Notes: generated by a model not told the origin, from the letters alone. 4,468 bases of DNA from Escherichia coli (GCF_003334785.1 NZ_QOWV01000046.1), one strand, 5' to 3'; positions 916 through 1,404 are shown, counted from the first letter of the stretch. Program-made: numbers and translations.

Positions 916-1404
916 TTAGTTAACCGCAGCTACGTAGTTTTTCACCAGATACGCGAATTCATGCACGCCAATTTCACCGAACCAAACCAGGTAGGCCGGG
1001 TCATCTAAACCAAAGTAACGGTAGCCAACAACTTCATGGGTTTTTGGGTTATAGAGTGTTACGATAAAGTCCCAGCCGCAGGTATTGGCTTTGCAACCGT
1101 CGCCCTGGAACCAGACTGTACCGTTAATGTTTACTGGCGTGATACCTCCACCAGGGCCATCCATATAGCCGCCTTTACCGAACATGCCGCTCAGTCCGAC
1201 CGGTTTTAATGCTTTGTCGATAGCGGCTTTGTAGGTAGCGTCACCTTCGTACAACTCGTACGTTGATGGACACGCTCCAGGTTGTTCAGCCCAGGCTTCC
1301 GGGTTACAACTAAGAGCTTGTTTTACGGTAGCCGCTTCTGCGTTAAAGTTAAAGCCCGTGAACAGAACCGCCAGAAATAACATAAGGGTATGTAAACGTT
1401 TCAT
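916..1404 (-). CDS. Secreted periplasmic protein, possible Ivy-family (lysozyme-inhibitor-like) fold; 162 aa
   Basis: Preferred start is ATG at 1404-1402, giving MKRLHTLMLFLAVLFTGFNFNAEA-A, a typical Sec signal peptide; GGAAG lies about 11 nt upstream. The ORF track extends the frame to a GTG at 1707, which I regard as unlikely. The mature part contains KGG...WFQGDGCKANTCGWDFIVTLY, which resembles the KGG...CKPHDCG...IAV core of E. coli Ivy as I recall it. Product call is tentative. Confidence 0.65.
   Translation of the reverse strand: MKRLHTLMLFLAVLFTGFNFNAEAATVKQALSCNPEAWAEQPGACPSTYELYEGDATYKAAIDKALKPVGLSGMFGKGGYMDGPGGGITPVNINGTVWFQGDGCKANTCGWDFIVTLYNPKTHEVVGYRYFGLDDPAYLVWFGEIGVHEFAYLVKNYVAAVN

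What the first reader, a model, noticed from the sequence alone, without database searches (positions are those of the whole stretch)
916..1404. Ivy-like periplasmic protein whose inhibitory loop lacks the conserved histidine
Seen in sequence: signal peptide plus a mature domain with KGG...DGCKANTCGWDFIVTLY. Established knowledge, recalled rather than searched: Ivy inhibits C-type lysozyme through a disulfide-constrained CKPHDC loop whose His enters the lysozyme active site. Here the equivalent loop is CKANTC, and there is an extra Cys pair near the N-terminus (SCNPEAWAEQPGAC). If the fold assignment holds, this variant may target a different periplasmic hydrolase or have no lysozyme activity.
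Basis: partly seen in the sequence, partly recalled or inferred. Interest (0 to 1): 0.5.

Follow-up and report, generated by a model that had tools for sequence, protein, structure and literature searches.

The report
Divergent island-borne Ivy-fold periplasmic protein
This E. coli gene encodes a secreted protein with the fold of the lysozyme inhibitor Ivy, but the key histidine in its inhibitory loop is replaced, it sits on a mobile island, and it is unusually variable between strains, so its target is probably not the classical one and remains untested.

Summary
Window 916-1404 (minus strand) is an intact 162-aa ORF with a Sec-type signal peptide, an N-terminal Cys pair (C33/C45) and a CKANTC loop (C104-C109).

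The Ivy assignment holds, but only by remote methods:
- Pfam, NCBIfam, PHROGs and PADLOC do not recognise the protein directly.
- A profile that includes its distant relatives hits the solved Ivy structures (E=3e-8).
- hhalign against canonical Ivy gives 90.6% probability and aligns Asn107 with the Ivy histidine.

The gene is an unannotated, divergent Ivy paralogue carried on CP4-type integrative islands, in 2333 of 5426 complete E. coli genomes. The "missing" His is polymorphic: alleles carry N, H or D at that site, and distant relatives mostly carry H.

The ORF is the divergence hot spot of the island (62-67% nucleotide identity, against 88-100% in the flanks) and is under purifying selection (dN/dS 0.06-0.33).

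RefSeq's longer 227-aa gene call is probably wrong.

Most likely function (inferred, not shown): a periplasmic loop-insertion inhibitor of a peptidoglycan glycosidase with shifted specificity. I rate it a new variant of a known kind, of moderate interest.

The parts
916..1404 (-). Complete CDS of the Ivy-fold protein (162 aa plus stop codon TAA at 916-918).
   Evidence: ORF and translation. Purifying selection, dN/dS 0.06-0.33. Ivy homology and fold.
1333..1404 (-). Sec-type signal peptide, aa 1-24 (MKRLHTLMLFLAVLFTGFNFNAEA). Predicted cleavage is after A24.
   Evidence: Read from the sequence: n-region K2/R3, hydrophobic core, A-x-A. The pattern is conserved in alleles. There is no lipobox. 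No dedicated predictor was available.
919..1332 (-). Mature Ivy-fold domain, aa 25-162: two helices (48-54, 56-69), a five-stranded sheet (89-93, 96-104, 112-119, 124-131, 138-142) and a C-terminal helix (147-161).
1078..1095 (-). Disulfide-type loop C104-K-A-N-T-C109, the counterpart of Ivy's CKPHDC loop.
   Evidence: C104 and C109 are invariant in 21 sequences. The loop aligns to the CKPHDC loop of canonical Ivy. It lies in the coil between strands 96-104 and 112-119.
1084..1086 (-). Codon AAT for Asn107, at the position of the Ivy histidine. The site is polymorphic among alleles: N, H or D.
   Evidence: hhalign column alignment. Allele loops are CKANTC, CKAHTC, CKAHAC, CKANAC, CKSNAC and CKSDAC.
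1270..1308 (-). N-terminal Cys pair C33...C45 (SCNPEAWAEQPGAC). A second disulfide is likely. The pair is specific to this subfamily.
   Evidence: Both Cys are at least 90% conserved in A3, and both are lost together in P0072. The model shows a beta-bridge between residues 34 and 44. Canonical Ivy has only the two loop Cys.
1415..1419 (-). Shine-Dalgarno-like GGAAG, 10 nt upstream of the ATG at 1404.
   Evidence: Read from the sequence. The corresponding GAAGG is seen in L002-type loci. This is a weak consensus only.
1405..1734 (-). Conserved 330-nt spacer between the patatin-like gene and the Ivy-like ATG. It is open in frame, and PGAP extends the CDS to 1599, but it is probably non-coding (leader or promoter region).
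   Evidence: Only 1-11 differences in 330 nt among loci, while the ORF diverges by up to 27-38%. Nd exceeds Sd in the extension. The region is not homologous in L002-type loci.
1699..1715 (-). Terminator-like hairpin followed by a T-run, just after the upstream patatin-like gene. This suggests the Ivy-like gene has its own transcription unit.
   Evidence: Consensus scan. This is a pattern match only.
490..900 (-). Downstream partner gene: a 136-aa secreted, 4-Cys protein found only in E. coli. It is genetically linked to the Ivy-like gene and also highly variable between strains. Function unknown.
   Evidence: phrog_8968, function unknown. No Pfam or PDB match. Its alleles sit next to the matching Ivy-like alleles on the same contigs. 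pS 0.16-0.47. AF2 confidence is low and there is no meaningful fold match.

Best explanation
The gene encodes a Sec-exported periplasmic protein of the Ivy fold. It belongs to a divergent branch of the Ivy family (PF08816) that CP4-type integrative islands of Enterobacteriaceae have captured.

By analogy with Ivy, it most likely acts as a stoichiometric protein inhibitor. The disulfide-constrained hairpin loop C104-KANT-C109 would protrude from the beta-sheet and plug the active-site cleft of a peptidoglycan glycosidase (a lysozyme-like muramidase or a lytic transglycosylase).

The plug residue is Asn here instead of His, the neighbouring Pro and Asp of CKPHDC are also replaced, and this position varies (N/H/D) among deeply diverged alleles. 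I therefore infer that its specificity is shifted away from, or weakened for, C-type lysozyme, and that different alleles may fit different targets.

Shown here: the ORF, purifying selection, export-signal features, Ivy homology and fold, loop equivalence, polymorphism, and island location. Inferred: the disulfides, the inhibitory mechanism, and the identity of the target.
For: Homology:
- phmmer finds 25-38% identical relatives, of which 14 of 21 aligned match Pfam Ivy.
- The family profile hits 1gpq/1xs0 at E=2.9e-8 and 4ps6/1uuz at about 3e-7.
- hhalign of the E. coli clade against canonical Ivy gives 90.6% probability and E=1.3e-6 over 89 columns.
- tblastn links the protein (32.6% identity, E=4e-10) to Klebsiella plasmid genes that PGAP names 'Ivy family c-type lysozyme inhibitor'.

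Fold:
- AF2 pLDDT 87.9.
- The Foldseek top 8 hits are all Ivy.

Loop:
- C104, C109 and G110 are conserved.
- The loop has the same C-x4-C-G length as CKPHDC-G and lies between two strands.

The gene is maintained:
- dN/dS is 0.06-0.33.
- It is present in 43% of complete E. coli genomes.

Mechanism precedent from the literature:
- The Ivy loop is essential for inhibition and occludes the lysozyme active site (PMC4262234, PMC5608400).
- The Ivy paralogue IvyP2 does not inhibit lysozyme in vitro (PMC5526577), yet IvyP1 and IvyP2 inhibit the lytic transglycosylase MltB (PMC10139938, citing Clarke 2010).

Variability:
- Variable sites among alleles cluster in residues 29-40, 85-92 and 97-108, which include the loop and its approach.
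- Residues 109-128 are nearly fixed.
Against: - No binding or inhibition was tested.
- The query itself matches no curated Ivy model.
- I could not read model coordinates, so loop exposure and Cys-Cys distances are inferred from secondary structure and alignment only.
- No peptidoglycan hydrolase gene is consistently adjacent, either in the island or near distant relatives, so no target is indicated.
- E. coli Ivy is only a weak inhibitor of lytic transglycosylases, with no detectable binding (PMC10139938).
- Some copies are pseudogenes (L010 has a stop codon, L014 has frameshifts), so the gene is dispensable.
Confidence: 0.6

Rival explanations
1. It is simply a second functional C-type lysozyme inhibitor, working like Ivy against host lysozyme. 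Asn107 (or His in other alleles) would hydrogen-bond the catalytic acids.
For: - It has the Ivy fold, an identical loop length, and conserved K105 and G110.
- Many alleles (CKAHAC, CKAHTC) and most distant relatives keep His.
- His-containing alleles score better against the NCBIfam Ivy model (20.3 against 11.6 bits).
- The exact allele occurs in animal-associated and pathogenic lineages such as O157:H7.
Against: - This allele lacks His, Pro and Asp of CKPHDC. That motif is reported as strictly conserved in 30 Ivy family members (PMC4262234).
- It scores far below the Ivy equivalog cut-off (11.6 against 180 bits).
- IvyP2 shows that Ivy paralogues can lack lysozyme inhibition (PMC5526577).
- E. 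coli already has core ivy and mliC (established knowledge; one search shows ivy is abundant).
Confidence: 0.25
2. It is a mobile-element immunity or defence factor. Together with the adjacent 136-aa secreted protein it would form a hypervariable cassette that neutralises incoming peptidoglycan-degrading weapons (phage tail lysozymes or endolysins, T6SS muramidase effectors, muramidase bacteriocins). Allele classes would be maintained by frequency-dependent selection.
For: - It sits on CP4-type islands among antirestriction, RadC, CbtA/CbeA and dynamin/patatin genes, in a fixed slot upstream of DUF932. Klebsiella-type relatives occupy the same slot.
- The ORF is the divergence trough of the island (62-67% against 88-100% nucleotide identity), with a sharp boundary at the ATG.
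- pS reaches 0.66, against 0.03-0.27 in flanking genes, which indicates old allele classes.
- The neighbouring gene is also highly divergent, and each of its alleles sits beside the matching Ivy-like allele.
- The variable sites include the loop.
- Literature precedent exists for lysozyme-inhibitor folds repurposed against a bacterial autolysin (the PhiA/SagA abstract, PMC8334348).
Against: - No PADLOC or PHROG hit for the Ivy-like protein.
- Absent from 50,697 phage records.
- No cognate effector gene nearby.
- pN/pS of 0.2-0.3 shows no gene-wide positive selection.
- Mosaic recombination alone could produce the divergence pattern.
Confidence: 0.18
3. The Ivy scaffold is retained, but the protein is not an enzyme inhibitor. 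It could be a periplasmic binding or structural protein with an unrelated ligand, or a dispensable passenger slowly decaying on the island.
For: - Loss of the canonical loop residues.
- Pseudogenised copies exist (L010, L014).
- The surrounding island in this window is itself decayed: a deleted dynamin-patatin operon and frameshifted GTPase and DUF932 genes.
Against: - Purifying selection holds across very old alleles (dN/dS 0.06-0.33).
- Both Cys pairs, K105, G110 and W111 are strictly kept, which argues that the loop itself is functional.
Confidence: 0.15
4. The true product is the 227-aa protein annotated by PGAP (916..1599). The reader's 'signal peptide' would then be an internal hydrophobic segment.
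For: - The frame is open from 1734 to 916 in all window-type loci.
- PGAP and several gene callers choose the long form.
- The extension starts with a hydrophobic, signal-like MKLPVKLLMSLISLVSVIARA.
Against: - The extension has no counterpart, and has in-frame stops, in L002-type loci whose ORF starts at the same MKRLH.
- Substitutions in the extension are nearly all non-synonymous.
- All distant relatives start with a signal peptide directly before the domain.
Confidence: 0.07

Closest known systems
E. coli Ivy (YkfE; PDB 1gpq, 1xs0; NCBIfam NF007443; Pfam PF08816)
   Same: - Periplasmic protein of about 130-140 mature residues.
- Same C-x4-C-G hairpin loop in the same alignment columns, with the preceding KGG and following hydrophobic strand aligned.
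   Different: - Only 16-18% identity.
- The loop is CKANTC rather than CKPHDC: His becomes Asn, Pro becomes Ala, Asp becomes Thr.
- It has an extra N-terminal Cys pair and a different C-terminal part.
- It is carried on an island and is highly polymorphic, rather than being a core gene.
- It scores 11.6 bits against a cut-off of 180.
Pseudomonas aeruginosa IvyP1 (PA3902; PDB 1uuz, 4ps6)
   Same: - The C-terminal 'W-x-G-(E/K)-P...helix' segment aligns with the family profile.
   Different: - About 20% identity.
- IvyP1 has CKPHDC.
- The N-terminal disulfide loop was not seen in the aligned region.
Ivy paralogues with altered loops (P. aeruginosa IvyP2; the 'CExxDxC' group of Abergel et al. 2007, as cited in PMC4262234 and PMC5526577)
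   Same: - A precedent for Ivy-fold proteins that depart from CKPHDC.
- IvyP2 does not inhibit lysozyme in vitro, but is reported to inhibit the lytic transglycosylase MltB (PMC5526577, PMC10139938).
   Different: - The loop here is C-x4-C, the canonical length, not C-E-x-x-D-x-C.
- I could not retrieve an IvyP2 sequence to compare directly.
Two-domain 'Ivy family c-type lysozyme inhibitor' of Klebsiella plasmids and Enterobacterales islands (WP_226650519.1 in L013; P0061 in L008)
   Same: - 32-36% identity to the query.
- Same N-terminal Cys pair.
- Same genomic slot in the island: after GTPase/WYL genes in L013, and directly upstream of the DUF932-antirestriction-RadC-CbeA-CbtA genes in L008.
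- The His position is also not His (CEQGNC, CEANNC).
   Different: - They carry an extra Cys-rich C-terminal domain of about 150 aa that is absent here.
- PGAP names the Klebsiella protein (WP_226650519.1) an Ivy family member, but not the E. coli protein.
Single-domain chromosomal Ivy-family proteins with a CEAHNC-type loop (P0065, P0069, P0077 and others)
   Same: - 25-34% identity.
- Same two Cys pairs and the same architecture.
- Several are recognised by Pfam Ivy.
   Different: - They keep His.
- They lie in housekeeping contexts such as UvrD, cytochrome c and DnaK, not on CP4-type islands.

Membership tests
Ivy family (Pfam PF08816) | Direct match of the protein to the Pfam Ivy HMM. | tested here: not met
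   There is no Pfam hit for the query even at E<=10.
Ivy family (Pfam PF08816) | Homology to Ivy demonstrable by transitive or profile-profile comparison. | tested here: met
   - 14 of 21 aligned relatives hit PF08816 at E<=1e-3.
- The A3 profile against PDB Ivy chains gives E=2.9e-8 to 3.5e-7.
- hhalign of A2 against A5 gives 90.6% probability and E=1.3e-6.
Ivy family (Pfam PF08816) | Ivy fold: a five-stranded antiparallel sheet flanked by helices. | tested here: met
   - AF2 pLDDT 87.9.
- The Foldseek top 8 hits are all Ivy, and the next hit has E>1.
Ivy family (Pfam PF08816) | Export to the periplasm (N-terminal signal peptide). | tested here: met
   Sequence features were read directly: K/R n-region, hydrophobic core, A-x-A. 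They are conserved across alleles and relatives. No dedicated predictor or experiment was available.
Ivy family (Pfam PF08816) | A protruding hairpin loop closed by two Cys (C-x4-C) and followed by Gly. | tested here: met
   C104 and C109 are invariant and G110 is conserved. The loop aligns with the Ivy loop and sits between strands. The disulfide itself is inferred.
Ivy family, canonical C-type lysozyme inhibitors | CKPHDC loop consensus with the active-site-plugging His. | tested here: not met
   The loop is CKANTC. N107 aligns with the His, and Pro and Asp are also replaced. Other alleles have H or D at this site.
Ivy family, canonical C-type lysozyme inhibitors | NCBIfam equivalog NF007443 at or above the 180-bit cut-off. 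| tested here: not met
   11.6 bits, E=0.19. The allele P0008 scores 20.3 bits. Genuine Ivy P0089 scores 276 bits.
Ivy family, canonical C-type lysozyme inhibitors | Inhibition of C-type lysozyme (or of a lytic transglycosylase) in vitro. | not testable with these tools
   This requires purified protein and enzyme assays.
Ivy paralogues of the CExxDxC type (IvyP2-like) | A seven-residue C-E-x-x-D-x-C loop. | tested here: not met
   The loop is six residues, C-K-A-N-T-C. The motif definition is taken from PMC4262234.
Known anti-phage defence proteins (PADLOC) / phage protein families (PHROGs) | A match to any model in these libraries. | tested here: not met
   No PADLOC or PHROG hit for the Ivy-like protein at E<=1. 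tblastn against phage genomes finds nothing.

The most novel reading that the evidence does not exclude
The Ivy-like gene and its 136-aa secreted neighbour form a hypervariable periplasmic immunity cassette of CP4-type integrative islands. Ancient allele classes would be kept by frequency-dependent selection because each neutralises a different incoming peptidoglycan-degrading weapon (phage tail lysozyme or endolysin, T6SS muramidase effector, or muramidase bacteriocin). The N/H/D residue at the tip of the loop would tune which enzyme is blocked. This would make the Ivy fold a mobile-element defence module rather than only a host-lysozyme or autolysin regulator.
Probability: 0.15. Interest if true: 0.7.

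Novelty: new variant of a known kind. Interest (0 to 1): 0.42.

Why it matters
Ivy is usually described as a narrowly distributed core-genome lysozyme inhibitor with a strictly conserved CKPHDC loop. This gene shows that about 43% of complete E. coli genomes, including O157:H7 strains that carry the identical allele, hold an additional Ivy-fold paralogue. It is currently annotated only as 'hypothetical protein', and with a probably wrong start codon.

The gene rides on mobile islands, and the plug residue of its inhibitory loop is polymorphic. It is also the most diverged gene of its island.

If the alleles have different enzyme targets, the family would give a natural series for studying how a loop-insertion inhibitor changes specificity. 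It could also reveal a periplasmic protection function of CP4-type islands.

At minimum, the result corrects an annotation and extends the Ivy family.

Tried and rejected
No result from direct searches with the Ivy-like protein:
- Direct Pfam scan: nothing.
- NCBIfam, PHROGs and PADLOC: nothing significant. NCBIfam at relaxed E gives only 11.6 bits to Ivy.
- Single-sequence phmmer against the PDB: only chance hits.
- The E. coli-only profile against the PDB: Ivy appears with the right alignment, but at E~1, which is not significant on its own.
- tblastn against phage genomes: no match.
- Rfam scan of the whole window: no RNA family.
- Promoter scan: no convincing sigma-70 site upstream of the gene on the minus strand.

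Searches for a target:
- I examined the genomic context of seven relatives (P0008, P0061, P0065, P0069, P0074, P0077, P0087) for an adjacent peptidoglycan hydrolase. None was found.

The neighbouring 136-aa protein:
- No Pfam or PDB match.

Rejected readings:
- PGAP's 227-aa gene model.
- 'Rapid positive selection' as the explanation for the divergence hot spot. pS is raised together with pN, and pN/pS is only 0.2-0.3, which points to old allele classes and recombination instead.

Literature:
- The primary Ivy papers (Abergel 2007, Clarke 2010) are not held in the library. Statements about them are taken from citing papers or marked as my own knowledge.
- A search for the protein accession or an 'Ivy-like' island gene found nothing.

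Limits of the tools:
- Model coordinates could not be read, so loop exposure and disulfide geometry were not measured.

Full report
**What is there.**
The window is 100% identical to a stretch of the E. coli JKHS016 chromosome and lies in a decayed CP4-type integrative island. On the minus strand, 916..1404 is an intact 162-aa ORF.

Its N-terminus (MKRLHTLMLFLAVLFTGFNFNAEA) has the features of a Sec signal peptide: basic residues, a hydrophobic core, and A-x-A before the predicted cleavage site. The mature part contains exactly four cysteines: C33/C45 (SCNPEAWAEQPGAC) and C104/C109 (CKANTC).

**Is it a real gene, and where does it start?**
The sequence occurs in 2333 of 5426 complete E. coli genomes, with 1-4 copies each, almost all chromosomal. 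The exact allele is found in O157:H7, O111 and O104:H4 strains among others.

Pairwise Nei-Gojobori estimates among six alleles give dN/dS of 0.06-0.33 with synonymous divergence up to 0.66. The reading frame is therefore under purifying selection.

RefSeq annotates a longer CDS (916..1599, 227 aa, 'hypothetical protein'). I reject that model for four reasons:
- In a second class of loci (L002-L005), similarity begins only about 10 nt upstream of the MKRLH ATG, and the upstream frame carries stops.
- The few substitutions in the 195-nt extension are nearly all non-synonymous (Nd 1-7 against Sd 0-2).
- All distant relatives begin with a signal peptide immediately before the domain.
- Most gene calls for homologues are 160-162 aa.

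A terminator-like hairpin (1699-1715, minus strand) follows the upstream patatin-like gene. The Ivy-like gene therefore probably has its own transcription unit, although the simple scan found no convincing promoter.

**Is it Ivy-like?**
Pfam finds nothing even at E<=10. NCBIfam's Ivy equivalog model gives 11.6 bits against a cut-off of 180. PHROGs and PADLOC find nothing.

Sensitive methods are nevertheless unanimous.

Sequence evidence:
- An exhaustive phmmer search of 1.84 billion representatives finds 25-38% identical single-domain relatives with the same two Cys pairs.
- 14 of the 21 aligned sequences hit Pfam Ivy at E<=1e-3.
- A profile of that alignment hits the four Ivy PDB sequences at E=2.9e-8 to 3.5e-7 and nothing else significant.
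- A profile of the E. coli clade alone, compared by hhalign with an alignment of canonical enterobacterial Ivy, gives 90.6% probability and E=1.3e-6 over 89 columns.
- tblastn links the protein directly (32.6% identity, E=4e-10) to Klebsiella plasmid genes that PGAP names 'Ivy family c-type lysozyme inhibitor'.

Structural evidence:
- An AlphaFold2 model has mean pLDDT 87.9.
- Foldseek against the PDB returns only Ivy chains as its top eight hits (target-normalised TM-score 0.63-0.73, probability 1.00), with the ninth hit at E>1.

The fold assignment holds.

**The loop.**
In the hhalign alignment, KGG aligns with Ivy's KGG. C104-K-A-N-T-C109-G aligns with C-K-P-H-D-C-G, and the following strand FIVTLY aligns with IAVMW. 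In the model the loop is the coil between strands 96-104 and 112-119, with pLDDT of about 93.

According to citing literature, the CKPHDC loop is essential for inhibition and strictly conserved in 30 family members (PMC4262234). It occludes the lysozyme active site by a lock-and-key mechanism (PMC5608400). That the His contacts the catalytic acids is my recollection of Abergel et al. 2007, which I could not open.

*The His position is polymorphic.*
- E. coli alleles carry CKANTC, CKANAC, CKSNAC, CKAHAC, CKAHTC or CKSDAC.
- An allele 95.7% identical to the window differs by only four residues, one of which is N107H.
- Most distant relatives have His (CEAHNC and similar).
- The island-borne two-domain relatives have N or G.

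*The N-terminal Cys pair is a hallmark of this subfamily.*
- It is at least 90% conserved.
- Both Cys are lost together in P0072.
- It is absent from canonical Ivy.

*The gene sits in a fixed slot of CP4-type islands.*
- The order is dynamin-like, RdcB/YjcZ-like, patatin-like, [Ivy-like], [136-aa secreted protein], DUF932, antirestriction, RadC, YeeT, CbeA/CbtA.
- A 314-aa relative occupies the same slot in another Enterobacterales genome.

*The ORF is the divergence hot spot of the island.*
- Sliding-window identity drops to 62-67% inside the ORF, while the flanks stay at 88-100%. There is a sharp boundary at the ATG.
- Synonymous and non-synonymous divergence are both raised: pS up to 0.66 against 0.03-0.27 in flanking genes, with pN/pS of 0.2-0.3.
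- This indicates old allele classes shuffled by recombination, not gene-wide positive selection.

*Variable residues cluster in particular segments.*
- They fall in residues 29-40, 85-92, 97-108 (the strand end plus the loop) and the C-terminus.
- Residues 109-128 are almost fixed.

*The downstream neighbour behaves similarly.*
- It is a 136-aa secreted protein found only in E. coli. It is also highly divergent, and each of its alleles sits beside the matching Ivy-like allele.
- Its fold could not be determined.

**Mechanism.**
I commit to the following, with about 0.6 confidence overall. The protein is exported to the periplasm and forms two disulfides. It then acts as a loop-insertion inhibitor of a peptidoglycan glycosidase, with specificity shifted relative to canonical Ivy.

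The fold, export signal, loop equivalence and selective constraint are shown here. The disulfides, the inhibitory activity and the target are inferred.

Precedents support the idea of a shifted target:
- IvyP2 of P. aeruginosa does not inhibit lysozyme in vitro (PMC5526577).
- IvyP1 and IvyP2 are reported to inhibit the lytic transglycosylase MltB, although E. coli Ivy inhibits MltA and MltB only weakly (PMC10139938).

No candidate target gene is adjacent, either here or near relatives.

**Rivals.**
- A plain second C-type lysozyme inhibitor (0.25). Asn can also form hydrogen bonds, and many alleles keep His.
- A mobile-element immunity or defence cassette against exogenous muramidases (0.18). 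This fits the island location and the allele structure, but it is unsupported by PADLOC, PHROGs, phage genomes or any neighbouring effector gene.
- A non-inhibitory or decaying passenger (0.15). Pseudogene copies exist, but the constraint on the loop cysteines argues against this.
- The 227-aa PGAP model (0.07).

**Classification and novelty.**
The protein is a divergent member of the Ivy superfamily. It is closest in structure to P. aeruginosa IvyP1 and closest in sequence to CEAHNC-type chromosomal Ivy proteins and to the two-domain Klebsiella 'Ivy family' proteins.

It fails the defining features of the canonical lysozyme-inhibitor equivalog: the CKPHDC loop with His, and the NCBIfam cut-off. 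It is also not of the CExxDxC type.

I rate it a new variant of a known kind. It is a useful annotation correction and a moderately interesting lead because of the polymorphic plug residue and the allele structure. It is not a new kind of system.

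Noticed in passing
window 490..900 (-): A 136-aa secreted protein with 4 Cys lies directly downstream of the Ivy-like gene. It is found only in E. coli and matches phrog_8968 (unknown function), with no Pfam or PDB match. Its alleles range from 57% to 100% identity and sit next to the matching Ivy-like alleles. It is absent from L002-type loci. The AF2 model has low confidence and is all-beta, with no meaningful fold match.
   Followed up: partly
window 1735..3325 (-): The N-terminal 316 aa of a dynamin-family (CrfC/LeoA-like) gene run into the C-terminal part of a patatin-like gene. 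This is an internal deletion of the dynamin, RdcB(YjcZ)-like, patatin operon, which is intact (794+301+356 aa) in loci L003, L004 and L009-L012.
   Followed up: partly
window 3543..4414 (-): A YeeP/YfjP-type GTPase gene is annotated as a frameshifted pseudogene. A truncated DUF932 gene lies at the other end of the window (1..269). The island in this strain is heavily decayed.
   Followed up: no
window 1405..1734 (-): The 330-nt spacer upstream of the Ivy-like ATG is open in frame throughout and at least 97% conserved among loci, while the ORF just downstream diverges to 62-67% identity. The very sharp divergence boundary at the start codon suggests a recombination breakpoint or a conserved leader/regulatory region. 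There is no Rfam hit.
   Followed up: partly
window 1699..1715 (-): A terminator-like hairpin (CACCGCC-TGT-GGTGGTG followed by a T-run) lies immediately after the stop codon of the patatin-like gene.
   Followed up: no
L010 3001..3483; L014 3935..4414: Two copies of the Ivy-like gene are pseudogenes: L010 has an internal stop (MFG*DG), and the copy on an IncF plasmid (L014) is frameshifted.
   Followed up: partly
L013 4779..5852; L008 5001..5945: Relatives in a Klebsiella plasmid and in an Enterobacterales chromosomal island carry an additional Cys-rich C-terminal domain of about 150 aa, of unknown function, fused to the Ivy-like domain. Their loops are CEQGNC and CEANNC, also without His.
   Followed up: no
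L002 5098..5640: In the second class of loci, an uncharacterised 180-aa gene with no Pfam match lies between the patatin-like gene and the Ivy-like gene, where the window has the conserved 330-nt spacer instead.
   Followed up: no
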